Origin: an uncultured archaeon
GTDB taxonomy: Archaea > Altiarchaeota > Altiarchaeia > IMC4 > SCGC-AAA252-I15
DNA length: 12,719 nucleotides
Assembly: GCA_902384455.1 (NCBI GenBank)
Contig: CABMCB010000101.1
Span: 1-12,719, forward strand
Reading direction: 5' to 3'
Below, in pieces: positions 1 through 12,719 of the stretch; the first letter of the stretch is position 1, and each line of letters starts with the position of its first letter. The notes under the pieces are model-generated. The model saw only the letters and a program-made list of their open reading frames with translations, searched no databases and was not told the origin of the DNA. Position numbers and translations under genes: made by a program.

Positions 1-888
1 CAACGCAGAAAATCCGCTCCAACTTATGACTTCATTGAGGGAGGCTATCATCAAAGCAAGAAGCAACGCCTGAAGTATCGGCACATAAACACAAATCATA
101 GTCATACGCCAAAGACGCGACCCCAAATTCTTGGTCATGTCAAAGTAGTAAAGGAAAATGGTGATGGGAAACAGCAGACCAAACGCGGTAACAGCAACGT
201 ACCGCATAGCCAAAATGACAGGCGGAGCTATGAGGGTCGTAAGAAGAATCATTGCGGCAGGAATTATGAAGATGGTGAGAATCCAAGTAGCAGGGCAAAA
301 GACGTAGATTATGATGACGACAGCAGCCGCAGCCAACGCCACCGCAAAAGCAGCGCCAGCACCCAGAAGAGTCGAACCGTTCACTTGCACGCCCGTGAGA
401 ATCTGAGCCACGACAACGGCGTTGATGTCCAAAAGCAACTGGAACAACATCGGAGAGGCAGACACCATCAGCATGGAAATAAGCGTATTCCTCAAACGCT
501 TCTTAGCCAAATTCCTGCTGGCCGGACTCTCAGCGCTCCAGATGAAGTTGAACGCCGCAGACAAAATGAATATGATGTAGATGGGGTACAGGATGCCCAG
601 TATCGCCGGCATTATTGCTTTAACTATAGGATGGACTCCTGCGCCGGTGGTAGTCCAAAAAACAGGGTTTATCGTTAGGCAAAAAATAATCGCGACCACA
701 AAGACGTTGATGTTGCCGGCAAGCATTTCGGTGAACAGGTTACCGAACAGCTTGGCGATGTACTCGCCGCTCATCTGGAAGCAGCCTGAAGCCGCAACGA
801 CAAGAACAAGAGCGAAAAGCAAAGCTAAGTGCTTTCTCGCATTGTTGCGCCGAACCGCGGGCGGACTGGAAGACGCCGGCTTAACCAC
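1..888 (-). CDS. Polytopic membrane protein, VirB6/TrbL (type IV secretion inner-membrane component)-like, with lipobox-like N-terminus; 3' end runs off the window
   Basis: Translated by hand; absent from the ORF track. GTG at 888 is the first start after an in-frame TAA at 895-897, and the frame is open for 296 codons to base 1. It begins MVKPASSSPPAVRRNNARKHLALLFALVLVVAASGC and has several hydrophobic segments. The segment MRYVAVTAFGLLFPITIFLYYFDMTKNLGSRLWRMTMICVYVPILQALLLAL matches the R-hydrophobic-P...T...W...P pattern I recognise from the VirB6/TrbL core. Confidence 0.7.
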   Translation of the reverse strand, partial: MVKPASSSPPAVRRNNARKHLALLFALVLVVAASGCFQMSGEYIAKLFGNLFTEMLAGNINVFVVAIIFCLTINPVFWTTTGAGVHPIVKAIMPAILGILYPIYIIFILSAAFNFIWSAESPASRNLAKKRLRNTLISMLMVSASPMLFQLLLDINAVVVAQILTGVQVNGSTLLGAGAAFAVALAAAAVVIIIYVFCPATWILTIFIIPAAMILLTTLIAPPVILAMRYVAVTAFGLLFPITIFLYYFDMTKNLGSRLWRMTMICVYVPILQALLLALMIASLNEVISWSGFSAL

Positions 889-934: not shown

Positions 935-1390
935 CTAAGTTTCGTACATACCCCATATTCTGCCGCTGCTCCTGTGGACATCCGAACCCGTCCTTTCATC
1001 AGAATACTCCACAACCACAAATACCTCAAACCTGTCGCCGGCACTCCCCCTCTTAAGAGTCCCAGCCGGCAACCCAACGACAGAGTAATTGCCGTTAGTA
1101 ATGACATTGTTCGGATAAAATTCAGCAGACGTCACCCCCTGCGTCACATTCAAGTAATTCAAAGTGACGTTGGCGCCAACCGTATTGAACAAGGAAAGAC
1201 TCAAACTGCCGTCTTCAGAAAGAATGAAATCCGACGGCTCCACACCCCAAAAACCTATCGAACCAGGCTGAATCGTCCCGCTAAAATTAAACAAACCCCA
1301 CTGCCACGCAACCACAACGGCAATCACAATCACGGCTATAGCCCAGCCGTAAGTCATCAAAAATTCAAGGCTGCTTTGTCCGCGGGCCAT
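935..1390 (-). CDS. Archaeal type IV pilin-like protein with class III signal peptide (151 aa)
   Basis: The ATG at 1390 gives MARG|QSSLEFLMTYGWAIAVIVIAVVVAWQWGLF: basic residue, G|Q cleavage site, E at +5, hydrophobic helix, then a beta-rich domain with N-x-T/S sequons (NFS, NVT twice, NYS). The track start at 1459 overlaps cmk and is unlikely. Confidence 0.85.
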   Translation of the reverse strand: MARGQSSLEFLMTYGWAIAVIVIAVVVAWQWGLFNFSGTIQPGSIGFWGVEPSDFILSEDGSLSLSLFNTVGANVTLNYLNVTQGVTSAEFYPNNVITNGNYSVVGLPAGTLKRGSAGDRFEVFVVVEYSDERTGSDVHRSSGRIWGMYET

Positions 1391-1427
1391 AATCAATACT
1401 AATTTAACGAAGCTCAATAAAAGGCGG

Positions 1428-1961
1428 CTACTTCCTGCGCATACCCTCAACAGCGGCATAAGCCACGGAAGTCATCGCAGGAATATCAAGCCTACCGGTG
1501 TTAATCACCAAATCATAGACGCTCAAATCACCCAAATCAATACTGTAGAACGCGCTATACCTCTTCCTCTCACTCGCCTCCCGCGCCTCCATGGCCGCAC
1601 GGGCTTCCGAGACGTTCTTGTACTTTTCTCCGCGACTCAACAAACGCTTAGCCCTCACTTCAGCCGGAGCAACAAGCCAAAGCGCCAAATCAGGCTTAAG
1701 GAAATACGCGGACAAACGACCATCAACCACCGCATCACCCGCCGCCTTAGCAGCAGTCCTCTGGCGCTCATCAATCTCCTTGTCAATCTCAGGGAAAGAC
1801 TCCGCCAACTTCGAGAACTCCAGGATGCTCATCCCGCGCTCGTCGGCCATCTGCCTAAGGAAGCTACCGGCGGAAACATGAGCGAAACCCAGCTTTTTAG
1901 CGAGGTTCTTGGCTAAAGTGCTCTTGCCCGAGGCAACGCTTCCGCCGACCGTCACCAGCAT
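1428..1961 (-). CDS. cmk: Cytidylate kinase, archaeal type
   Basis: P-loop GGSVASGKST, VSAGSFLRQMA.ERGMS, IDKEIDERQ, VVDGRLS, SERKRY..FY.ID..DLSVYDLVINT. It lies immediately downstream of rpl34e, as in the conserved archaeal cluster. Confidence 0.95.
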   Translation of the reverse strand: MLVTVGGSVASGKSTLAKNLAKKLGFAHVSAGSFLRQMADERGMSILEFSKLAESFPEIDKEIDERQRTAAKAAGDAVVDGRLSAYFLKPDLALWLVAPAEVRAKRLLSRGEKYKNVSEARAAMEAREASERKRYSAFYSIDLGDLSVYDLVINTGRLDIPAMTSVAYAAVEGMRRK

Positions 1962-3519: not shown

Positions 3520-4746
3520 TCATCGTTCCCGCGGGAAACCCCTGTCGAAGTAGAACTGCTTGGCGGCCTCAAACTCATTGTATCCAGCCAAAGCGTTTGC
3601 CGCAGCCAAAACTCTCACTTCATCCGGTCCGAAAGCGCCGAATAACGCTTTTAGTTGCCTGTAATTGATGAATGTTTTAGGCATGTTGCCTGAGGTTCCC
3701 TCCCCCAGAACCCTCTTTATTCCCCTCTCGTCGGAGGGGTCTTCAAGATACCTTTTGACTGCTTGATGGCGGCGCCACACGAGGTTGTCTTCAGGCCCCT
3801 CGCCTTTTGGCGGATTGGCCATAAAGTGCTGCCAGCCGGGGGGTAGGGACATGTCGCCGCCCATGTCAGGCCTCAACTCCCTTTCGTATGGGACCCATCC
3901 TCTGAATCCGCGAGTGTCTTCGTCGACGTACATTGCGTTTTGAATAGTCCACCATGCTTCTTGGGGTAGGACGCTGAAGTCGACTTCCCGGCGTATATCT
4001 TTTTGAGGGTGCACGTCATGGCGGTGCTCGACCATCTTGTCAACCTGGCTTCCGCCGATAAAAGAAGCTAATGCAATCCAAATCCAATTTTTCTTCGCCC
4101 AATCCCTGAACTTTTCCCACCCAGACCTACCAGAAGTAGAAGGACGCGGCGGACTAGACGGACGATCACCTCTGGACTCCGGCGGCCTGCTGGCGGGAGC
4201 GGGAGCGGGCGGAAGTACTGTAGGAGCAGGAGGTGGCTCAGGGTCGGTGGGGTGTATTGCCGCCTCCATCAGCGGGAAGAATTCAGTCGCAGCCGCCTTC
4301 ACGTATCCGCCTAAGTCTCTTGGAAGCGCCGCCGTAGGCTGCGTGGCCCTCAAGTATGCGGCGGAGTCGGGTTGTTCTCCTGTTTCCATTGCGTGTAACG
4401 CGGCGTTTCCTATTTGAACTTCATTTAGTTCCCCGACGTTTACTTGGCTTGCAGTCGCAAGAACCATCTTCATTACTGGCTGGTGTACTTGCGTGGGTGG
4501 GAGAGTGGGGTTTGCGCGGGAAAAAGCGTAGTATAAGCCGCTTTTGACTTCAGGATGCACGTCGACGTTGCCTTGGACTGCAGCATACACTTGATGCATG
4601 TGACCGGCTTGGATGTCCGGCGGCACCGTGCTTAAGTAGTCTGTGACTTGCTGCTGCGTAGGCAGAGGCCTCATCACTTCGACATCCTCTTCCGGGGGGC
4701 GGCTTCCTCTTCTTCGGGGAGGTTGCAGAGGGGATGGCGCAGTCAT
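3520..4746 (-). CDS. Hypothetical Pro-rich protein with central amphipathic/hydrophobic segment; last gene of the array operon
   Basis: 408-aa ORF starting 23 bp after the upstream stop. It has a Pro-rich linker followed by WEKFRDWAKKNWIWIALASFIGG. No family recognised. Confidence 0.75.
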   Translation of the reverse strand: MTAPSPLQPPRRRGSRPPEEDVEVMRPLPTQQQVTDYLSTVPPDIQAGHMHQVYAAVQGNVDVHPEVKSGLYYAFSRANPTLPPTQVHQPVMKMVLATASQVNVGELNEVQIGNAALHAMETGEQPDSAAYLRATQPTAALPRDLGGYVKAAATEFFPLMEAAIHPTDPEPPPAPTVLPPAPAPASRPPESRGDRPSSPPRPSTSGRSGWEKFRDWAKKNWIWIALASFIGGSQVDKMVEHRHDVHPQKDIRREVDFSVLPQEAWWTIQNAMYVDEDTRGFRGWVPYERELRPDMGGDMSLPPGWQHFMANPPKGEGPEDNLVWRRHQAVKRYLEDPSDERGIKRVLGEGTSGNMPKTFINYRQLKALFGAFGPDEVRVLAAANALAGYNEFEAAKQFYFDRGFPRER

Positions 4747-4769: not shown

Positions 4770-6683
4770 TTATCTTGGCGGGCGCAGACTTATATTCGGC
4801 GGTACGTCAGAGGGGGCGGCTTCAATCCTTCTGACGGGGTAAGATTCATGGCCTTGTGTAGCCCAATATTTTATGGCGTCGGATTCTATAGTCAAGTCTC
4901 CTTGGTCAGCGTATATTTCTATTGCTCCTCTTGTCGCGGGGGGGTTCTGTAGATTGGCGATTTTTGAGTACCTTAATTCGTTTGTCCCCAACGTGAAGTC
5001 CACTGATAAGGAGTATCTTAGAAGGTTGCCTGCGTCGAATCCGGCTGCTGCCTGGCGGCACCGAGTTATTACTGCTTCGTCTTGAACTTTGTGGGGGTTC
5101 CCTAAGCTATCAATCAGGAATACTTCGCCGTTTGTTTCATAGCCTTGTGTGGCCAGGATTTGATAATCGTCGGAGTCAAGGGCGATTTCGTATCTTGGAA
5201 AATTGCCCGTACCGTTGGTGGCGTATTCCACTCTTGTGCCGTCCCTCAGCAGTCTAGTATGACGCCAGTAGATTCTGCCGTTTGGCTCTGTTTGTAGGGG
5301 GTTTAAATCGCCTCGGACGAACGTTGACCCGTCTACTTGAATGAAAGCTTCGTCCGTCCTGCGCCTCAAAGCTAGCATGGCGTCGTAAGTTGCAGCAGGC
5401 AGACTGTAGTAGACACCGCCGCCCTCCTCTTCATGCCGTTGTGGAACCACTTCCGTAAGAGGCTGGGCCGCATTGAGTACGTCGGTTAAATTTATGCGGG
5501 GCTTTTGAGTTACCCTAAGGGAGGGTGGAACTGGACCTAACGTTCTGTCTGAATCCGAGCCCGGAGCAGGAGCGGCAGAAGGCGGTCCTCCAGTTGTAGG
5601 CTGCGGGCCTACTGTGCGGGCTATGTCTTCGACGTAGTTGCGTACTGCTCCTACGATTAATTGTTCTCCGCCTGCGCGGTTTAATGCGATTATTGCGTGG
5701 ATTGACGGGTCTTTTTCTGGCGGCAAACCGGGATGCTTTCGCTCGTAATCTTGCGCTAATGCGCCGAGTATTTTGGCGTATTCGTCGTTTTCTTGCTTTA
5801 AGTCTCCTGTTCTGGCGTCTAGCAGGCGCACGTGAAAGTGAACGTCGTTTGATGCGCCAAGTATTCGCAGAAGTTCCCTCATTTCAGGATGGCGTTCTTG
5901 GGCGGCTGCGGCTGTAGCGTCAAGCTGAGCGTATGCGTTGTCGCGCACAGACAACATGTATTTGTGCAACGCTATGTCCCTGGAGTTAACGTCTGCGCCG
6001 GTGACAGGCGGAAATGCGTTCCAGGCACCTTCAAGCCGTTGCCGAGCGGGTTCATTACCAGCGGCTGTAAAAGCTCTGTCGGCTTCCATGAAGCGCGTGC
6101 CTATGAACGTACCCACCCATACTGCCTGACCAAAATTATCAGAAACAAGCGGAGGATAACCTTTTGTCACATAATTTAGCAGCAGCCCCTGAAAGTCTAA
6201 TCCTCCGTAATCTCCCAGCGCATTCAACAAAGCGACTGTCTGCCGGTGCTCTGGGAGCGCAGCGGCAGCAGCTACCGCAGGACCAACCACTTGGTCGCCG
6301 AATATGCGGGAACCCATTCTGCCGGAGGATTCTTGACCTGACGCTGAAGTGAGAGAGCCCTCTATTATTCTGCCTAATGCGCCTGCTTCCTGGCATGTGA
6401 TTTGAAAGTCGTCGCGTAGGAGAGTCAACGCGGAATCGACTGAACGACGTGCCATGGCCGGGAGAGGACGTAATTGCATGGGTGCAACTTCAGGATGCGA
6501 GAGACGAAGTAACTCAGCCTGCAAAATACGGGCTTGATGAGGGTTAAGATTGAAATCGTCAAGAAGTTGAACCGCAGACCCTATTTTCCTCTGCTGCATA
6601 GGCGATAGTTCTACGCCTGCTGCTTGGAGAGCCTCACCTAATTCAGCTTGTTGGGGTAACCGGACTACTTCATGTTGAACCAT
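4770..6683 (-). CDS. Array paralog A: conserved leader + helical module + YSLPA domain
   Basis: Start moved from GTG 6695 to ATG 6683 because MVQHEVVRLP matches the starts of the paralogs and GGTGA (overlapping the upstream TAG) is positioned as an SD site. Confidence 0.85.
   Translation of the reverse strand: MVQHEVVRLPQQAELGEALQAAGVELSPMQQRKIGSAVQLLDDFNLNPHQARILQAELLRLSHPEVAPMQLRPLPAMARRSVDSALTLLRDDFQITCQEAGALGRIIEGSLTSASGQESSGRMGSRIFGDQVVGPAVAAAAALPEHRQTVALLNALGDYGGLDFQGLLLNYVTKGYPPLVSDNFGQAVWVGTFIGTRFMEADRAFTAAGNEPARQRLEGAWNAFPPVTGADVNSRDIALHKYMLSVRDNAYAQLDATAAAAQERHPEMRELLRILGASNDVHFHVRLLDARTGDLKQENDEYAKILGALAQDYERKHPGLPPEKDPSIHAIIALNRAGGEQLIVGAVRNYVEDIARTVGPQPTTGGPPSAAPAPGSDSDRTLGPVPPSLRVTQKPRINLTDVLNAAQPLTEVVPQRHEEEGGGVYYSLPAATYDAMLALRRRTDEAFIQVDGSTFVRGDLNPLQTEPNGRIYWRHTRLLRDGTRVEYATNGTGNFPRYEIALDSDDYQILATQGYETNGEVFLIDSLGNPHKVQDEAVITRCRQAAAGFDAGNLLRYSLSVDFTLGTNELRYSKIANLQNPPATRGAIEIYADQGDLTIESDAIKYWATQGHESYPVRRIEAAPSDVPPNISLRPPR
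6363..6683 (-). repeat. Dispersed ~320-bp leader repeat, copy A
   Basis: 6580-6683 matches 11332-11435 with 5 mismatches in 104 bp by hand alignment. 6545-6581 is identical to 8450-8486. Confidence 0.9.
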
Positions 6684-6695
6684 AATTCGCTTCAC

Positions 6696-8588
6696 CTAAG
6701 GTTTAGCGGAAGATTCTTCCCTTACGATGGCATAGTCCCTTCCGGCAGAGTAGCTATAAAAACGTATTGAGCCGTCAGAATTTATCTGCATGCCGTTCAT
6801 TTCAAGGTAGGTGGGTGAGTTAGTTCCTCGGTGATAATCAAAAAAATACGAAGGCCCGTTGAAGACCGCGTGAAGTGTTGTTCCTGTTTTTGGTTGGCCT
6901 CTAAACAACGTAGCTTTCTCGCGGCACATAAGCGCCAAACCTTCGTTTTCAACGTTGGTTTTTTCGGGGGAATACGTATAAACTGGCCCCGTTGGATCAC
7001 CATCTAAACCGGCGTTAACGCGATAAACACCAGGACTACCGGACAACATCACGGAAAAGTTACGTTCCCCCCCGTCATACTCCACGAAAGTACCGTCACT
7101 AAAATTCAAACTTTGACTCCATTGAACCCTACGTATGCCCAAGTCGCTTAGAACCTGAACATTCTGACCTGGAACAAACGTGTTCACGTCAACAGACGCA
7201 AAAGCCTCATCCGCCATCCTCTTCAAAGACAACAAACCATCATAAACACTGGCAGGAAGACTATAAGTGACCTCACTCCCAACCTCACTCCTTTTGGGAA
7301 CCACACCAACAAAAGGACTAGATGCCTCAACCAAAGGAGCCAACTTAACATGAGGCCTATGGTCTACTGTCTGCGGAAGGTTTAACCGTAGTTTTTCGAA
7401 TGCGTCCGCCGCCACCCCATTTTGAGTTAGGAAATCGGGCGTTAAGGGGGTGGGCACTTGGGAGATGTAAGTCCCGTCAGGACGCCATTTTTTCCTTTCG
7501 CCCCCAAAAACCTCAGGATTGTAGCTGTAGCCGTGAAGATTAACTCCGTCACTAAAAAACACTGCCGTAGGGTCGGGTTCACTACTACTCCAGTTCGGCC
7601 AGTGATACATCCGCCAGTTTGCCATACCCACGTCATAGTCACACAGCAAATCAGGACGCTCACTCCAACCGTGAGTGAGAAACACTCCAAGAATCTCGCC
7701 AACTTCAACATCCACTTTCCTGCGGCCTAAGCTTAGCCCTAAGAATTTTCGGGGTTGTAGTCTTGTTTCTGTGGGCGTTTGCGGGTCTATGTAACGGAAG
7801 CTGTTTGGAACTAATTCACATCCTGCCACCATAAGTCCTGTTGCTGTGTAGGAGCCGTCTCTGTTTTCTACGCCTCTTACGTCAGCCATAAACATCGTCC
7901 ATTCTTGACCCAAGAATTCGTGTCCGTGCGCTACCGCGGTGAGGGCCGTCATCTGCTGGTATATGCTGTTTGATATGTGGAAGTTTCTTTGGGTTCCGTT
8001 TGGGGCAAAAACCGGTATTGTCATGCATAATCTGTCTGCGTAATCGACGCCGAACTGCTTCCGGTATTCTGAATCTACGCGGCTCAGGTATTCATTGAGC
8101 GTCCTGGCGTTTCCGTAAAGTATTTCATTTTCCTCTTGTGGTTTGGCGCCTTCAGGAACATGAAGTAATGCCCCTCTTAGAGGGAATAATGCTGCTTCGT
8201 CAAGAAGATTAGGCACCCCGCCTGAAGCACTTAGAGGCACCGTATGCCGTTCAGTTAGCGAATCCCCTATTATCCTACTTAGTGCGCCTGCTTCCGGCCC
8301 GGCGATTTGGAAGTCGGAGATAAGCAGCGTGAGCGCTGAATTTACTGCGCGCTGCTGCATAGGCGGAAGATTAGACGCAGGCATAGGCGCAGACTCAGGA
8401 TGCGCCAGACGCTCCAACTCAGCCTGCAAAACACGAGCTTGACCATGAGTAAGATTGAAATCGTCAAGAAGTTGAACCGCAGACCCAACCTTCCTCTGCT
8501 GCATAGGCAAAAGCCCGACGCCCGCCTGCTGAAGAGCAACATCAAGCTCCTGCCGCACAGGAAGCCGAAAGACTTCTTGCTGAACCAT
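6696..8588 (-). CDS. Array paralog B: conserved leader + degenerate JAB/MPN-like domain + YSLPA domain
   Basis: 630-aa ORF with leader MVQQEVFRLP. GEILGVFLTHGWSERPDLLCDYD aligns with the JAMM motif region of paralog C. Confidence 0.85.
   Translation of the reverse strand: MVQQEVFRLPVRQELDVALQQAGVGLLPMQQRKVGSAVQLLDDFNLTHGQARVLQAELERLAHPESAPMPASNLPPMQQRAVNSALTLLISDFQIAGPEAGALSRIIGDSLTERHTVPLSASGGVPNLLDEAALFPLRGALLHVPEGAKPQEENEILYGNARTLNEYLSRVDSEYRKQFGVDYADRLCMTIPVFAPNGTQRNFHISNSIYQQMTALTAVAHGHEFLGQEWTMFMADVRGVENRDGSYTATGLMVAGCELVPNSFRYIDPQTPTETRLQPRKFLGLSLGRRKVDVEVGEILGVFLTHGWSERPDLLCDYDVGMANWRMYHWPNWSSSEPDPTAVFFSDGVNLHGYSYNPEVFGGERKKWRPDGTYISQVPTPLTPDFLTQNGVAADAFEKLRLNLPQTVDHRPHVKLAPLVEASSPFVGVVPKRSEVGSEVTYSLPASVYDGLLSLKRMADEAFASVDVNTFVPGQNVQVLSDLGIRRVQWSQSLNFSDGTFVEYDGGERNFSVMLSGSPGVYRVNAGLDGDPTGPVYTYSPEKTNVENEGLALMCREKATLFRGQPKTGTTLHAVFNGPSYFFDYHRGTNSPTYLEMNGMQINSDGSIRFYSYSAGRDYAIVREESSAKP
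8268..8588 (-). repeat. Dispersed ~320-bp leader repeat, copy B
   Basis: 8322-8360 is identical to 11169-11207 (39 bp), and 8450-8486 is identical to 6545-6581 (37 bp). Confidence 0.9.
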
Positions 8589-8606: not shown

Positions 8607-11435
8607 TTAAGAGACAGTTATTTCAGCTGCGAACGGCCTCAGTTGGTTTACTGGGCCTGTTGCGTTTCCTTCTGTGACGGCATATGTTTCCGCGAATCTT
8701 TCGAATCTGTTGATGTCGTAAGGGTAGACTACTGGTTGGCGTCCTTCGCGGGTTTGTATCATTGTGAAGAATGGTAGTTCTGCTTGAGCGGGGAGTTGTT
8801 CGCCTCTCATCCTGAAGAGTTCGTTAACAGCCACAAGGTCTTGGTTGCTTAGTACACCCCATTGTTCGTCGTTTGCTGGGTGGGGGTGGTACGTGCCCAA
8901 GTAAACTTCGCCTTCAGCTAATCCGAAGCCTTGAGCCATCTGGAACCTAACCCTGTTTTCCTCAGCCCACACTCTTGCAGGCACCGCAACGTCTGTGACG
9001 CGGAATCCTGCTTCAGTTTGCTGCCCGACCAGTCCCACGAATAATTCTGCGACGTCGGGTGCTACCGCATTCGCCGCCGCAAGAGCGTTTATAGCATCAA
9101 TCTGAGCTTTGACCGAATTAGTAAATTCAACCGGATGTCGAGGCCTGATTGGCGGAGTTATTCCCTGCTGTCCGGGGTGATACACTTCAAAAGTCAATGC
9201 CGTATTATCCGCGATTTCAGGGTTTTGCGTCCGGTAATTGACGGCTACTTCAGCGAGGTACTGCCTAATTAACCGGGTGTTTTGCTCCCCGTGTTCTTCC
9301 CCGCCTAGTATCTGGGGAATATTGATTTCGCCGTGGCGGCCAACATAAACTGGAGCTGGACCAGGAGGAGCAAGATGGGGAGCGGGACCAGGAGGAGCAA
9401 GATGGGGAGCGGGACCAGGCGGTTGTGTTGTTGGCTCCTGCCTTATGATGTCGTACCATTTTCTTTCTTCTGTGTTGTAGTATCTGATTGAGTCGTCTCT
9501 TTTAACGGATAATGTATTGTTTATGGAAAGTTCTCTAAAAGCTTGACTGTATTCTATTGGTATGGAGTCCACATCGAGTCTCGCTCGTACAGAACCGTCA
9601 TCTATTCTTCCTTCATTGAATCCTGCGACTGCCGCACGGACCCGGCGAACAACGTCTTCGTCTTCAACGTCGGCTCTATTGCCGTCGGTATATGCGTATA
9701 CAGGCCCGTTTGCTGAGCCGTTTGAGTCGACGGAAATGTAGCGAGGAGGCGAGTCTCTGCCGTCTAATTGGACGTTAAAATAGTTAGAGTGGGTGCCACG
9801 CATATAGCTCACAATTGTCCCGTCACTTAAGACTCTGCGTTGATTGAAGGACGCATCAAACGGCACGTCGGATTGTATTGGAACCTCCAAGTTTGGGTTG
9901 AGCATTTCAGGGGTTATTTCGGCAAACGCCTGCGTGAACCCCCCTCTTAAAGCCGCCAATGCATCGTACGTTTCAGCTGGAAGGCTGTATGTTACGGTTT
10001 CGCCGGACTCATGCCTTTCGGGGGCGACACCCACCAAGGGCTTAGCCGCCTCAACTAGGGGAGCCAAAACGACTTGATGCTTCTCGCCTGCAGTTAGGGG
10101 CACTATTGAATTTAATTCTACGGTAGGAGGTTGCTGAACTGTGCCGGGACCTGGAGGAGCTGGAGGTTGCTGCGCGACTACAGGGGGTAATGGAGTAATT
10201 CTGAATGCGTCTAAAGCACCTTCTTCTAGGGGCGCAAAGACGCCTGCTCTTTTTGGGTCTACTGCGGTGTACGCTGCGTTGAATGCTTCTGCGTTGTACC
10301 CGAAAAAGTGAGGTTGCTCTCCGTCGTGGAACGCGGTAACCCACGGGATTCCCGCCGCAGCATTCTCTGACGCCGCCTCCTGCCTTGCGCGCCTTCTAAC
10401 GCGAGGACTCCAAAAAGGAATTCCTTTAGCAGCAGCATCAACAGCATTTGCCTGCGCAGTTTCCTCACAGGCACTGCGCCTCCATGTGGTAACGCGCATG
10501 TCCCAGTCGTGGGGGCTTGAAGGAGAATCACTCCAAGAGTGAGTAAGGAAAGACCCCACCGCAAAATCGCCATCAGCAACAGTCGGGGGATAAGACTGGA
10601 AATCAAAAAAGCTAAGGTTATAATTGTTTCGCTTGTATCCCAATCCGGGAACATTAAGCCAACTCACTTTGAATGAGCCGTCCTCTTCAGGAACTCCGAT
10701 TAACTCGGCCGCAACAACAAGGTTTGGGTTAGGGCCGCCCTCGCCTGTCAACGCCTGCAGCGCGCGCATTTGCTGGACTGCGCTGTTTGTCAAATTAACG
10801 TTTACTGGTTGGCCGTTGGGGGCTGTGACTGGAAGCGTCATGGCTATTGCGTCTGCGCCTTCATCTCCTAATTGCGCTCTTGTGGCTGCGGCTACCGCAT
10901 CAAGGTACTTGTCTACTGCTTGACCGTTGTTTATGCGCCTCTGCTGGTTTATTGCCTCAATTCTTTTCTTTTGCTTGGCGTTGGTGTCAACAGGCTCGTA
11001 TTCAACCAGTTCCAAACGTGGCGTTTCTACTTGGCTTAAGTCTATTTGCGGGATTCCGCCGGCAATATGCGGGAGGTGTGCAGGTGGAGTCTGCTCTGTT
11101 CTCGCTGCCGCATTGAGTATGTGACTTAGTGCGCCTGCTTCTTGGCCGGCGATTTGGAAGTCGTCGCGAAGCAGCGTGAGCGCTGAATTTACTGCGCGCT
11201 GCTGCATGGGCGGAAGATTCGACAGAGGCATGGGCGCAGATTCGGGGTGAGCTAGTCGTTCGACTTCGGCGCTAAGATGCTGTGCTTGCTGCGGGTTAAA
11301 GTTGAATCCGCCAAGAAGCTGGACGGCAGATCCTATTTTCCTCTGCTGCATAGGTGATAGTTCTACGCCTGCTGCTTGGAGGGTCTCGCCTATTTCAGCT
11401 TGTTGGGGTAACCGGACTACTTCATGTTGAACCAT
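8607..11435 (-). CDS. Array paralog C: conserved leader + degenerate MPN-like domain + YSLPA domain + C-terminal JAMM/MPN+ metallo-isopeptidase-like domain
   Basis: 942-aa ORF. The C-terminal AELFVGLVG...FRVTDV...LGTYHPHPANDEQWGVLSNQD carries E...HxH...SxxD, and an internal copy reads VGSFLTHSWSDSPSSPHDWD. Confidence 0.85.
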   Translation of the reverse strand: MVQHEVVRLPQQAEIGETLQAAGVELSPMQQRKIGSAVQLLGGFNFNPQQAQHLSAEVERLAHPESAPMPLSNLPPMQQRAVNSALTLLRDDFQIAGQEAGALSHILNAAARTEQTPPAHLPHIAGGIPQIDLSQVETPRLELVEYEPVDTNAKQKKRIEAINQQRRINNGQAVDKYLDAVAAATRAQLGDEGADAIAMTLPVTAPNGQPVNVNLTNSAVQQMRALQALTGEGGPNPNLVVAAELIGVPEEDGSFKVSWLNVPGLGYKRNNYNLSFFDFQSYPPTVADGDFAVGSFLTHSWSDSPSSPHDWDMRVTTWRRSACEETAQANAVDAAAKGIPFWSPRVRRRARQEAASENAAAGIPWVTAFHDGEQPHFFGYNAEAFNAAYTAVDPKRAGVFAPLEEGALDAFRITPLPPVVAQQPPAPPGPGTVQQPPTVELNSIVPLTAGEKHQVVLAPLVEAAKPLVGVAPERHESGETVTYSLPAETYDALAALRGGFTQAFAEITPEMLNPNLEVPIQSDVPFDASFNQRRVLSDGTIVSYMRGTHSNYFNVQLDGRDSPPRYISVDSNGSANGPVYAYTDGNRADVEDEDVVRRVRAAVAGFNEGRIDDGSVRARLDVDSIPIEYSQAFRELSINNTLSVKRDDSIRYYNTEERKWYDIIRQEPTTQPPGPAPHLAPPGPAPHLAPPGPAPVYVGRHGEINIPQILGGEEHGEQNTRLIRQYLAEVAVNYRTQNPEIADNTALTFEVYHPGQQGITPPIRPRHPVEFTNSVKAQIDAINALAAANAVAPDVAELFVGLVGQQTEAGFRVTDVAVPARVWAEENRVRFQMAQGFGLAEGEVYLGTYHPHPANDEQWGVLSNQDLVAVNELFRMRGEQLPAQAELPFFTMIQTREGRQPVVYPYDINRFERFAETYAVTEGNATGPVNQLRPFAAEITVS
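9358..9419. repeat. 27-bp coding tandem repeat (about 2.3 copies; PPGPAPHLA)
   Basis: GGACCAGGAGGAGCAAGATGGGGAGCG occurs at 9358 and 9385, with a partial copy at 9412. Confidence 0.9.
11115..11435 (-). repeat. Dispersed ~320-bp leader repeat, copy C
   Basis: The protein alignment with copies A and B is gap-free over 107 aa. Confidence 0.9.
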
Positions 11436-11437
11436 TT

Positions 11438-12718
11438 TTATATAGCATATTGGTCGTCTACTGCTGATTTAGTTCCCGCCCAATTTGTCGGGTCTATTTT
11501 CTCCAGCATTTCTGCGACTGCAACAGCTTCGATGCGGCGCGGACCGGGGTATCCTTGAGCTTCAATTTCGGTTATACGATGCCCCAACACTCCAAGTAAA
11601 TTACCTCTTAGTCCAGGGTCAACTCCCAGTGACGGGATAGGAATATCCTTCAGTCCTTCATCAAATGTGCCCCACCGCGCAACAAGCTCGTTTATTAACG
11701 CATCCGTGTCTCCCGGCGTCCTTGCCGTGTTCGCCAGTATTCCTGCCACGTCAACCGGACCAGGAGGAGCTTGGACTGGAGCGGCACCTTGTGTGGGAGC
11801 GGGTATTCGCGTAATTAAAGCATCTATTGCTTCGGGTGTTGAAGCATCTTCGCCCGCCTCACCAAGGCGCGCTACAGCAAATCTTTGAGTGCGGTCCTGC
11901 CTTAGAACCTCAACCCAATCCTGCACTGCACCATCGCGGTTTCCGCGCAAATTACGGACTACACCGCGAATATTATGGTTATAGATTAAACTAGCTCCAA
12001 AATCTATTTCCTCATCAAGACGACCTTCTACGCCAACTAAAAAGGCGTCTGCCGCTGCTGCCGCATCGCCTCCAGCTTTTCGCATAAGGACTATTGTGGG
12101 GTCTCTTCCCGTATTGTGGAGTACCCGCTCAACTTGATTGAGGGGTAGGCCGTTCATCAAACCGATCATCTGTGTTACGTCGTCTGGGTTCGTGAAGTCC
12201 ATGAAGTATCCGAGGTTGCTTACCATGACGCCGCTTTGCGGATTTAAGCGGACTGCTGTTCCGTAGCAGTCTCTCTTGGTTAATGCTTCTTGGCCTGCGG
12301 GGGCGTTGGTTAGGTATACTCCGCGAACGTTCCAAGCTTCTGCGTTTTCTGGCGAGACTACTGTTGCTGCGCGCGCGAGCATCCACCTGCGAGTTCTCTC
12401 TTCTTCTACTGTTATTCCGTGGGTTTGGGCGGCAGTTGCTTCATCTCCGAGTGATAGCTGCACTAAATGAGCGGTCAGGGTACTGAGTTGGTCTCCTTGT
12501 AGGTTGCCTCCGCCAGCTACGGCTCTTATTTCGTCTTCAGTTGCGGAAGCGAACCTAACTGCAATATCGTAGATAGTCTGCGAAGACTGCGCATTTGCTT
12601 CCCCGGCTCCGAGTATTCCCTGTACATCGCCTAACAGGCCTGCAATTCTCTGCGCGTCAACCTGAACCGGAGGAGCACCAGGAGGCTGCTGAACCGGAGG
12701 AGCACCAGGAGGCTGCTG
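11438..12718 (-). CDS. TPR-repeat-containing protein, 5' end outside the window
   Basis: The frame stays open upstream of the track's GTG (12463) to the window edge (QQPPGAPPVQQPPGAPPVQVDAQRIAGLL...). TPR-like motifs: SPENAEAWNVRG, YGTAVRLNPQSGVMVSNLG, YNHNIRGVVRNLRGNRDGAVQDWVEVLRQD. Confidence 0.75.
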   Translation of the reverse strand, partial: QQPPGAPPVQQPPGAPPVQVDAQRIAGLLGDVQGILGAGEANAQSSQTIYDIAVRFASATEDEIRAVAGGGNLQGDQLSTLTAHLVQLSLGDEATAAQTHGITVEEERTRRWMLARAATVVSPENAEAWNVRGVYLTNAPAGQEALTKRDCYGTAVRLNPQSGVMVSNLGYFMDFTNPDDVTQMIGLMNGLPLNQVERVLHNTGRDPTIVLMRKAGGDAAAAADAFLVGVEGRLDEEIDFGASLIYNHNIRGVVRNLRGNRDGAVQDWVEVLRQDRTQRFAVARLGEAGEDASTPEAIDALITRIPAPTQGAAPVQAPPGPVDVAGILANTARTPGDTDALINELVARWGTFDEGLKDIPIPSLGVDPGLRGNLLGVLGHRITEIEAQGYPGPRRIEAVAVAEMLEKIDPTNWAGTKSAVDDQYAI

Positions 12719-12719
12719 A
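12662..12719. repeat. 27-bp coding tandem repeat (at least 2 copies; QQPPGAPPV), truncated by the window edge
   Basis: CTGAACCGGAGGAGCACCAGGAGGCTG occurs at 12662 and 12689, and a third unit starts at 12716. Confidence 0.9.

What the first reader, a model, noticed from the sequence alone, without database searches (positions are those of the whole stretch)
8680..9290. Apparently catalytically intact JAMM/MPN+ domain at the C-terminus of a 942-aa protein, with no E1/E2/Ubl partner nearby
Seen: Glu at 9045-9047 in AELFVGLVG, the strand FRVTDV, then LGTY-H-P-H-x10-S-NQ-D (8838-8888). Known: the JAMM motif is E...H-x-H-x7-S-x2-D. Characterised archaeal JAMMs are small stand-alone desampylases, and prokaryotic JABs often sit beside E1/E2/ubiquitin-like genes (for example CBASS Cap2/Cap3). 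Here the spacer is 3 residues longer, the domain is fused to a large multidomain protein and no conjugation genes are in the window. Inference: the substrate is encoded elsewhere or belongs to another organism.
Basis: partly seen in the sequence, partly recalled or inferred. Interest (0 to 1): 0.8.

Follow-up and report, generated by a model that had tools for sequence, protein, structure and literature searches.

The report
Divergent JAMM protease domain, orphan archaeal protein
The last 180 residues of an orphan 942-residue archaeal protein form a very divergent zinc-protease (JAMM/MPN+) domain that keeps every catalytic residue, and the same protein also carries an older, catalytically dead copy of that domain.

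Summary

Sequence profiles barely see the domain: Pfam Prok-JAB scores 13 bits against a cut-off of 25. Three other lines place it in the MPN/JAB fold:
- Three relatives keep all five catalytic residues. One of them has the canonical 7-residue spacer and nearly reaches the Prok-JAB cut-off.
- Two AlphaFold models and the ESM Atlas model match only MPN proteins (VIA Z up to 10.3; Foldseek E 1e-5 to AMSH).
- The motif elements lie on the expected strand and helix ends.

New here:
- Residues 169-400 are an internal duplicate that has lost the Glu and the first His, so it is MPN-minus.
- The next gene (630 aa) carries the same dead copy.
- Three tandem paralogues share N- and C-terminal modules.
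- The family was not found in 60 related genomes.

No E1, E2 or Ubl gene lies in the window. Elsewhere the genome has one ThiF-type E1 and three canonical small Prok-JABs.

The substrate is unknown and activity is untested. I read it as a new variant of a known kind, of moderate interest.

The parts
8607..11435 (-). Gene for the 942-aa protein P0001. Its ATG lies 2 nt after the stop of the upstream gene.
   Evidence: open frame, no stops inside
8610..9137 (-). MPN+/JAMM core domain, residues 767-942.
   Evidence: AF2 model m21df1371afd7. VIA wide: ranks 1-33, the rows at Z 8.0 or more, are all MPN entries by title, best Z 10.3. Foldseek: 36 matches at E<=0.001, best AMSH at 9.8e-6. ESM Atlas model: 10 of 10 rows are JAB-clan, TM 0.54-0.67. 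Prok-JAB is the only Pfam family listed at E<=10 (E 0.092).
9138..9284 (-). Family-specific N-terminal extension of the domain (helix plus strand, residues 718-766). It is also present in the duplicate and in the relatives.
9045..9047 (-). Glu797, the putative general base. It has the canonical spacing E-x2-[AGV]-x-L-x-G to the first core strand.
8880..8888 (-). His850-Pro-His852, putative Zn ligands at the end of a strand.
8850..8879 (-). The 10-residue spacer PANDEQWGVL. Three of the 4 active family members carry this form (P-[AG]-N-D-[DE]-x-W-G-[VY]-L); the fourth has 7 residues.
8838..8849 (-). Ser863-Asn-Gln-Asp866, at the start of the following helix. Asp is the putative third Zn ligand.
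9345..9434 (-). Pro-rich linker (PPGPAPHLA x3, residues 668-697), encoded by a 27-nt tandem repeat at 9352-9419.
9420..10118 (-). C-module shared by the three paralogues (residues 440-672). Fold unknown.
   Evidence: no usable Atlas or Pfam hit
10236..10931 (-). Internal duplicate of the MPN unit (residues 169-400). It has Val at the Glu position and Leu at the first His, so it is MPN-minus.
   Evidence: BLASTP E 1e-5; profile A2 E 7.8e-7; reciprocal profile hits; alignment
11100..11435 (-). N-module shared by the three paralogues (residues 1-112, about 70% identity), itself made of two ~31-residue repeats.
6696..8588 (-). Paralogue P0002 (630 aa): N-module, MPN-minus copy (residues ~150-379, 7452-8141) and C-module. 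It has no MPN+ domain.
4770..6695 (-). Paralogue P0003 (641 aa from the GTG, 637 from the ATG at 6683): N-module, an unrelated middle region and C-module.
3520..4746 (-). Co-directional orphan gene P0004 (408 aa, one hydrophobic segment). Last gene of the cluster.
11438..12718 (-). Co-directional orphan gene P0005 (over 426 aa, cut by the contig end; Pro-rich repeats). First gene of the cluster.

Best explanation
Residues 767-942 of P0001 are a genuine but very divergent MPN+/JAMM domain, a distant offshoot of the Prok-JAB lineage. All five catalytic residues are kept: Glu797 as general base, His850, His852 and Asp866 as zinc ligands, and Ser863 supporting the site. I therefore read it as an active zinc-dependent peptidase or isopeptidase.

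The domain hangs on a flexible Pro-rich linker at the end of a large non-enzymatic scaffold. That scaffold contains an older duplicate of the same domain which has lost the Glu and the first His (MPN-minus). The protein is the only catalytic member of three tandem paralogues that share N- and C-terminal modules. They probably assemble or act together with the two flanking orphan genes.

Shown: the motif, its conservation in relatives, the fold at model level, the internal duplication, the loss of catalytic residues in the duplicate, and the absence of Ubl or E1/E2 genes in the window.

Inferred: zinc binding, peptidase activity, that the substrate is a protein C-terminal tail or isopeptide encoded outside the window, and any cooperation between the dead and the live copy.
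For: Motif and coordinates.

Relatives: P0008 (695 aa, phmmer E 1.5e-7 against 1.84 billion representatives), L018 (metagenome contig, tblastn 3e-15) and P0009 (355 aa, profile E 1.8e-41). E, H, H, S and D are invariant in 4 of 4 active members.

Link to Prok-JAB: P0009 has the canonical HxH-x7-S-xx-D and scores 21.9 bits (E 1.7e-4) on Pfam Prok-JAB. Prok-JAB is the best Pfam family for all 4 members (13.1, 15, 14 and 21.9 bits). hhalign of the family against the 3 canonical Prok-JABs of the same genome gives E 8.7e-5, probability 60%, with HxH and S..D aligned across a 3-residue gap.

Fold: in model 2 (pLDDT 60, pTM 0.61) E797 sits just before the first core strand, HxH at a strand end and S..D at a helix start. 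In VIA wide, the rows listed at Z 8.0 or more (ranks 1-33) are all MPN entries by title, with best Z 10.3, 136 residues aligned and rmsd 3.6. The first non-MPN row has Z 6.1. Foldseek gives 36 matches at E<=0.001, with AMSH, AMSH-LP and Sst2 on top (E 9.8e-6, TM 0.54-0.56), and every listed row is an MPN entry. The independent ESM Atlas model gives 10 of 10 JAB-clan rows at TM 0.54-0.67. Model 1 gave the same families at weaker scores.

Duplication. Paralogue structure. Composition typical of the genome: GC 0.522 against 0.505, tetranucleotide correlation at the 37th percentile of 213 windows.
Against: - No curated profile reaches its cut-off. Prok-JAB scores 13.1 bits against 25, and full-length P0001 has no Pfam family at E<=1.
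- A profile of the genome's own 3 canonical Prok-JABs does not find it at E<=1 among 21,612 ORFs.
- No PDB chain is found by sequence at any convincing E-value.
- Both AF2 models are of low confidence (mean pLDDT 55 and 60). The spacer loop and the region after it are the worst parts. Model coordinates could not be read, so convergence of E/H/H/D on one site was not measured.
- The family alignment has only 4 active sequences.
- No Ubl, E1 or E2 gene is nearby, and no ThiS or ubiquitin was detected in the genome, so there is no candidate substrate.
- Divergent JAB clades in toxins have been proposed to be nucleases rather than peptidases (PMC3482391, passages read).
- There is no evidence that the gene is expressed.
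Confidence: 0.6

Rival explanations
1. The C-terminal JAB domain is a toxin or effector tip, as in Tox-JAB-1/2 of bacterial polymorphic toxins. It would be delivered or deployed by the scaffold and act on a non-Ubl target, possibly nucleic acid or a protein of another cell. The paralogues without a tip would be variants of the same delivery scaffold.
For: The JAB domain is C-terminal in all 4 family members, behind long scaffolds or coiled coils. The three tandem paralogues have a conserved N-module (about 70% identity) and divergent bodies (about 30%). The family was not found in 60 related genomes, as expected for conflict genes. The Atlas feature search lists Toxin-JAB1 and DUF4329 clusters at 0.88, which is a lead only. 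Zhang et al. 2012 describe divergent JAB toxin tips (PMC3482391, passages).
Against: There is no Pfam hit to Toxin-JAB1 or DUF4329 even at E<=10. No known trafficking domain, RHS or filamentous repeats, or signal peptide was seen. The gene after P0001 is a paralogue, not a small immunity-like gene. There are no PADLOC or PHROGs hits. The model is closer to peptidase-type MPN domains (Z 8-10) than to RadC (Z 5.5).
Confidence: 0.15
2. It is simply another housekeeping desampylase or Ubl-processing enzyme of the organism's own E1-Ubl sulfur-carrier system, fused by chance to a larger protein.
For: The genome has one ThiF-type E1 (137.6 bits). Archaeal JAMM1 enzymes cleave SAMP conjugates (PMC4443979, abstract in the search listing). 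PfJAMM1 and CsRpn11 are among the structural matches.
Against: The genome already has 3 canonical small Prok-JABs over the cut-off. P0001 and its domain were not found in 60 other genomes of the phylum, which is unlike a housekeeping function. No ThiS or ubiquitin family member was detected. The E1 gene has no Ubl or JAB neighbour.
Confidence: 0.1
3. The domain is an MPN fold that keeps the motif but serves as a binding or scaffold module, catalytically silent or only weakly active, like several eukaryotic MPN domains.
For: Many of the best structural neighbours are non-catalytic MPN proteins: CSN6, Rpn8, eIF3f, Npl4 and Prp8. The same protein already holds one dead copy.
Against: All five catalytic residues are invariant across 4 members that share only 25-29% identity with P0001. 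That is hard to explain without selection on the site. The dead copies show what decay looks like in this same lineage.
Confidence: 0.1
4. It is a chance motif in a non-MPN region, or an assembly artefact.
For: The bare pattern occurs in 39 of 21,612 ORFs. The contig comes from a 103-contig draft with tandem paralogues and repeats.
Against: There are homologues with the same motif and consistent MPN matches from three models. The duplicated unit, with its extension, starts 5' of the core and is continuous with it.
Confidence: 0.03

Closest known systems
Prok-JAB (Pfam PF14464): small prokaryotic JAMM enzymes such as AfJAMM (1r5x), Pyrococcus JAMM1 (5ld9) and Haloferax HvJAMM1
   Same: Same fold at model level (Z 7.7-8.5). 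Same E...HxH...S..D residues, with the same E-x2-[AG]-x-L-x-G spacing. Prok-JAB is the best Pfam family for all 4 members.
   Different: The score is below the family cut-off. The spacer is 10 residues instead of 7. The core is about 45 residues larger, with extra C-terminal helices and an N-terminal extension. The domain sits at the end of a 942-aa protein rather than standing alone. There is no Ubl or E1 neighbour.
AMSH / AMSH-LP / Sst2 catalytic domains (3rzu, 2znv, 4jxe)
   Same: These are the best Foldseek matches (E 1e-5 to 2e-4, TM about 0.5-0.56). They are similar in size (about 175-190 residues), and the domain is likewise C-terminal, behind a non-catalytic N-terminal region.
   Different: Sequence identity is 12-16%. 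Whether the Ins-1 and Ins-2 elements that bind ubiquitin exist here cannot be said from a model with pLDDT 60. The organism has no detectable ubiquitin.
Eukaryotic MPN+/MPN- pairs (Rpn11-Rpn8, CSN5-CSN6, BRCC36-Abraxas/KIAA0157)
   Same: An active copy and a catalytically dead homologue coexist, and these complexes are among the top structural matches.
   Different: Here both copies are in one polypeptide and arose by a lineage-specific internal duplication. Physical pairing is not shown. There are no PCI partners. [quoted passage not shown]
[quoted passage not shown] 2012, PMC3482391)
   Same: A divergent JAB domain at the extreme C-terminus of a large multidomain protein, in a locus of related genes, without Ubl systems nearby.
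   Different: No profile match. No known trafficking or repeat modules and no immunity-like gene. Archaeal host. The model is closer to peptidase-type MPN domains than to RadC.
CBASS Cap3 (9ild) and bacterial Bil/Bub deubiquitinases (8tyy, 9ea5)
   Same: MPN+ fold (Z 9.3, 9.3 and 6.5).
   Different: These are defined by operon partners (CD-NTase and Cap2, or E1/E2/Ubl). None of these is in the window, and there is no PADLOC hit.

Membership tests
JAMM/MPN+ superfamily (JAB clan) | MPN fold | tested here: met
   Three models agree. AF2 model 2: in VIA wide, the rows listed at Z 8.0 or more (ranks 1-33) are all MPN entries by title, best Z 10.3; Foldseek gives 36 matches at E<=0.001, all MPN. 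AF2 model 1 gives the same families at weaker scores. ESM Atlas model: 10 of 10 rows JAB clan, TM 0.54-0.67. Caveat: mean pLDDT is 55-60.
JAMM/MPN+ superfamily (JAB clan) | Catalytic motif E...H-x-H-x7-S-x2-D | tested here: met
   All five residues are present and invariant in 4 of 4 active family members. The spacer is 10 residues, not 7, in 3 of the 4, and 7 in P0009. hhalign places HxH and S..D on the canonical ones with a 3-residue gap.
JAMM/MPN+ superfamily (JAB clan) | Motif residues on the canonical elements: Glu before the first core strand, HxH at a strand end, S..D at the start of the next helix, all converging on one Zn site | tested here: inconclusive
   The secondary-structure positions fit.
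JAMM/MPN+ superfamily (JAB clan) | Zinc binding and zinc-dependent hydrolysis | not testable with these tools
   Needs protein biochemistry.
Pfam Prok-JAB (PF14464) | Score at or above the gathering cut-off of 25 bits | tested here: not met
   13.1 bits, E 0.092 for the domain alone. No hit for the whole protein at E<=1, and not among the genome's hits at E<=0.01. Relatives score 15, 14 and 21.9 bits.
Pfam JAB (PF01398, eukaryote-type) | Profile match | tested here: not met
   No match in the window or the genome.
Archaeal desampylase (HvJAMM1 / PfJAMM1 type) | Small stand-alone JAMM acting with a SAMP (ThiS/MoaD-type Ubl) and a UbaA-type E1 of the same genome | tested here: inconclusive
   The domain is not stand-alone (942 aa). 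An E1 is present. ThiS was not detected at E<=0.01 in a 92%-complete genome. One unverified 80-aa ORF ending in RGG lies next to another JAB gene on contig C62.
CBASS Cap3 / Bil-type deubiquitinase | Operon with CD-NTase and Cap2, or with E1/E2/Ubl genes | tested here: not met
   No such family occurs in any window ORF, and there is no PADLOC hit.
[quoted passage not shown] | Match to the Toxin-JAB1 or DUF4329 profile; N-terminal trafficking domain or RHS-type repeats; adjacent immunity gene | tested here: inconclusive
   No profile match at E<=10. No known trafficking or repeat domain. The downstream gene is a 630-aa paralogue. Unknown archaeal equivalents cannot be excluded.
MPN+/MPN- pair (Rpn11-Rpn8 type) | A catalytically dead MPN homologue alongside the active one | tested here: met
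   Residues 169-400 are homologous to residues 718-942. The duplicate has Val at the Glu position and Leu at the first His. P0002 has Met and Leu at those positions.
MPN+/MPN- pair (Rpn11-Rpn8 type) | Physical heterodimer of the two MPN domains that supports activity | not testable with these tools
   Needs binding and activity experiments.

The most novel reading that the evidence does not exclude
An archaeal lineage independently invented the eukaryote-style pairing of a live JAMM protease with a dead MPN pseudo-protease. It did so by internal duplication within one polypeptide. The second, protease-less paralogue (P0002) offers another dead copy. The three-paralogue scaffold plus its flanking orphans would then form a dedicated, so far undescribed, deconjugation or processing machine whose substrate is not a classical SAMP.
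Probability: 0.2. Interest if true: 0.7.

Novelty: new variant of a known kind. Interest (0 to 1): 0.5.

Why it matters
JAMM enzymes are the only metalloprotease class of the ubiquitin world, and their prokaryotic relatives are the usual starting point for ideas about how that world arose.

This locus adds a subfamily that curated profiles miss. Only four active members were found across the protein and contig collections searched. It also shows a live and a dead MPN copy in one archaeal protein. According to a paper read here (PMC6043591), that arrangement is known from eukaryotic lid-type complexes and not from archaea.

If the two copies cooperate, it would be a simple, tractable model for why JAMM proteases so often need a pseudo-enzyme partner. 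If the domain is instead an effector tip, it would extend JAB-type conflict proteins to archaea.

Either way the claim is modest. It is a divergent member of a well-known fold with unknown substrate.

Tried and rejected
- Complex prediction of the MPN-minus unit (alignment A8) with the MPN+ core (A7) plus Zn gave 'no answer' (runs 0.34, 0.00, 0.00; mark 0.32; controls not run). It says nothing either way.
- The look-up of sequencing runs listed one DNA run with a 0.05 share and no RNA holder. Read laying placed a single 151-nt contig at 10034-10184. This gives no information on expression or on the join between scaffold and domain.
- Sequence search of the PDB found nothing at E<=10 with the domain alone. 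With the 2-sequence profile it returned only chance-level rows, best E 0.051 to a ribosomal protein.
- PHROGs and PADLOC gave no hit for any window protein. P0009 weakly hit a 'tail protein' phrog, E 0.0037. NCBIfam gave only chance-level rows.
- Pfam on the N-module, the C-module, the MPN-minus unit and the P0003 middle region gave nothing near a cut-off. The Atlas search on the C-module gave no usable hit, best TM 0.44 to a MORN-repeat cluster.
- The search for related loci found no relatives in genome contigs (2 scans) or viral contigs (2 scans). This pattern-based method can miss distant relatives.
- The search for homologous proteins with whole P0001 returned only the window's own three paralogues.
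- P0007 (2,794 aa, repeat-rich) was dropped. It reached E 2.1e-9 only through 8 copies of a 39-residue stretch, and the family profile does not match it at E<=10. It was left out of all alignments.
- Foreign origin by composition was rejected.
- The idea that the N-module is a Ubl cleaved at the Gly-Gly that follows it in P0001 and P0002 was not pursued.
Full report
**Setting.** The window is the whole of contig C101 of a 2.41-Mb, 103-contig draft genome, 92% complete with 0.9% contamination. Its left 3.5 kb carries archaeal core genes: ribosomal protein L34e, a cytidylate kinase and an EMC3/TMCO1-like membrane protein. The rest is a run of five co-directional minus-strand genes with almost no spacing:
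- P0005 (11438-12718, cut by the contig end)
- P0001 (8607-11435, 942 aa)
- P0002 (6696-8588, 630 aa)
- P0003 (4770-6695, 641 aa)
- P0004 (3520-4746, 408 aa)

None of the five has a Pfam or NCBIfam family near a cut-off. The composition of the cluster is ordinary for the genome. GC is 0.522 against 0.505, and the tetranucleotide correlation falls at the 37th percentile of 213 equally long windows.

**The observation.** The bare pattern is not rare. H.H.{7,10}S..D occurs in 39 of 21,612 stop-to-stop ORFs of this genome. The motif alone therefore proves little.

**Sequence evidence.** The full protein has no Pfam hit at E<=1. The last 245 residues alone give one family at E<=10, Prok-JAB, at 13.1 bits (E 0.092, cut-off 25), over the stretch that ends at the HxH.

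A full HMMER scan of 1.84 billion representative proteins with this domain returned three proteins:
- P0001 itself, with two matching stretches.
- P0008 (695 aa, E 1.5e-7).
- P0007, a repeat-rich 2,794-aa protein. I discarded it because it scores only through eight copies of a 39-residue stretch, and the family profile does not match it at E<=10.

A metagenome scan added L018, an ORF of at least 346 aa followed by a TPR protein. A profile search of the 5.8-billion-protein index added P0009, 355 aa, E 1.8e-41.

The searches that found no relatives:
- The other 60 genomes of the phylum, with the domain profile or with P0002.
- Two scans of 185,579 species genomes.
- Two scans of viral contigs.
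- The index search with whole P0001, which returned only the window's own paralogues.

In the four active members the Glu, both His, the Ser and the Asp are invariant, at only 25-29% identity to P0001. Three members share the long spacer as a signature, P-[AG]-N-D-[DE]-x-W-G-[VY]-L. P0009 has the textbook seven residues (HTHPAGYDVFSAQD) and scores 21.9 bits (E 1.7e-4) on Prok-JAB. It bridges this family to the canonical one.

Prok-JAB is the top Pfam family for all four members. A profile-profile comparison with the three canonical Prok-JABs of the same genome aligns HxH and S..D across a 3-residue gap (E 8.7e-5, probability 60%). Plain HMMER with that 3-sequence canonical profile does not reach the window protein at E<=1. 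The long spacer is not unique either: two JAB-like ORFs on contig C98 of this genome also have ten residues.

**Fold evidence.**
- *AF2 model 1* covers residues 698-942 from a 4-row alignment. It was poor (pLDDT 55). Even so, every listed Foldseek row was an MPN entry (best E 4.8e-4). The first twelve VIA rows were also MPN entries, at Z up to 5.5.
- *AF2 model 2* covers the trimmed core, residues 767-942, from a 6-row alignment (pLDDT 60, pTM 0.61). An unbiased VIA search of 48,161 chains listed 33 rows at Z 8.0 or more. All are MPN proteins by title. Two are NMR structures of unnamed function that I recall as Prok-JAB members. The best row had Z 10.3, 136 residues aligned and rmsd 3.6. The first non-MPN row was at Z 6.1, and RadC at 5.5.
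- *Foldseek on model 2* gave 36 matches at E<=0.001, led by the AMSH, AMSH-LP and Sst2 catalytic domains (E 9.8e-6, TM 0.54-0.56).
- *The ESM Atlas model*, made without any alignment of mine, gave 10 of 10 JAB-clan rows for residues 760-942 at TM 0.54-0.67.

In model 2 the Glu lies just before the first core strand, HxH closes a strand, and S..D opens the next helix. This is the canonical layout as I recall it from AfJAMM. I could not read coordinates, and the spacer loop is the least confident part. The convergence of the four ligating residues was therefore not measured.

Residues 169-313 of P0001 align with residues 718-857 (28% identity, BLASTP E 1e-5). The domain profile finds this region at E 7.8e-7. 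The relation is reciprocal between profiles. The similarity continues through the late strands (alignments). So the protein holds two copies of the same unit, including a family-specific helix-plus-strand extension in front of the MPN core.

The N-proximal copy has Val at the Glu position and Leu at the first His. P0002 carries the same unit, with Met and Leu at those positions. Both are therefore MPN-minus. The relatives P0008, P0009 and L018 have a single, active copy each.

The three paralogues share two modules:
- An N-module of about 112 residues, with 69-72% amino-acid identity and 69-73% DNA identity. It is itself made of two ~31-residue repeats (score 52 against 21 +/- 4 in 500 shuffles, none reaching it).
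- A C-module of about 230 residues, with no recognisable fold.

Only P0001 continues, through a PPGPAPHLA x3 linker encoded by a 27-nt tandem repeat, into the active domain.

The genome has three Prok-JABs over the cut-off (contigs C62, C71, C34) and two below it. It has one ThiF-type E1, whose neighbours are unrelated. At E<=0.01 there is no PF01398 JAB, ThiS, ubiquitin or UQ_con. The UQ_con search rang in no control genome, so that answer is uninformative. An 80-aa ORF ending in RGG overlaps the 3' end of the C62 JAB gene. It has no Ubl profile support and remains only a candidate.

**Reading.** I take the C-terminal domain to be a real and probably active JAMM metallopeptidase of a tiny, deeply divergent Prok-JAB offshoot. 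It is tethered to a scaffold that contains its own dead duplicate. Active-site conservation across four distant members argues for catalysis. Nothing here identifies the substrate.

The main rival is a Tox-JAB-like effector tip (PMC3482391, passages read). It fits the C-terminal position and the patchy distribution. It has no profile match, no trafficking module and no immunity gene to support it.

A housekeeping desampylase is unlikely, given three canonical small JABs in the genome and no homologue found in related genomes.

PMC6043591 (passages read) states that the Rpn8-Rpn11 type of organisation is not known in archaea. That gives the live-plus-dead arrangement some interest, but their cooperation is untested.

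**Verdict.** The substrate inference is undecided. I class it as a new variant of a known kind, of moderate interest.

Noticed in passing
window 11100-11435 (P0001), 8253-8588 (P0002), 6348-6683 (P0003): The shared N-module consists of two ~31-residue repeats (L-x-P-M-Q-Q-R-x-[IV]-x-S-A-[VL]-x-L-L ...). In P0001 and P0002 it is followed about 15 residues later by Gly-Gly (AGG / SGG, around residues 125-127). P0003 has only the second Gly. Whether this is a processing site is unknown.
   Followed up: partly
window 9352-9419 and 12662-12719: Two 27-nt tandem repeats encode Pro-rich linkers: PPGPAPHLA in P0001 and QQPPGAPPV in P0005. The second runs into the contig end and probably caused the assembly break.
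   Followed up: no
own genome, contig C98: 672-1331 and 2693-3268 (locus L010): Two neighbouring JAB-like ORFs (220 and 192 aa) each have HxHP, a 10-residue spacer, PS-x2-D and an upstream Glu. One scores 22.6 bits on Prok-JAB. They are not close relatives of the window domain (family profile E>1).
   Followed up: partly
own genome, contig C62: 3126-3371 (L006:2342-2584, P0010): An 80-aa ORF ending in ...IPPIRGG overlaps the 3' end of a 354-aa Prok-JAB gene. It is a candidate ubiquitin-like partner or a frameshifted fusion. No Pfam Ubl family matches it.
   Followed up: partly
window 935-1459 (-) and 1-888 (-): A 174-aa ORF contains a stretch (ARGQSSLEFLMTYGWAIAVIVIAVVVA) that resembles an archaeal class III (type IV pilin-like) signal peptide, as I recall the motif. 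It lies next to a polytopic membrane protein. Neither has a Pfam hit.
   Followed up: no
window 3520-4746 (-): P0004, the last gene of the cluster, has one hydrophobic segment (WIWIALASFIGGS) after a Pro/Ser-rich region. It is the only cluster protein with an apparent membrane anchor.
   Followed up: no
L018 1039-2418: In the metagenome relative, the JAB protein (K/E-rich coiled-coil N-terminus) is followed, with overlapping stop and start, by a 459-aa TPR-repeat protein.
   Followed up: no
window 10476-10580 (P0001 residues ~286-320) and the equivalent stretch in P0002: The dead copies keep a shared motif at the former active site (L-T-H-x-W-S-[DE]-x-P ... D-[WY]-D ... W-R). The region may still be under constraint, but only two sequences are available.
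   Followed up: no
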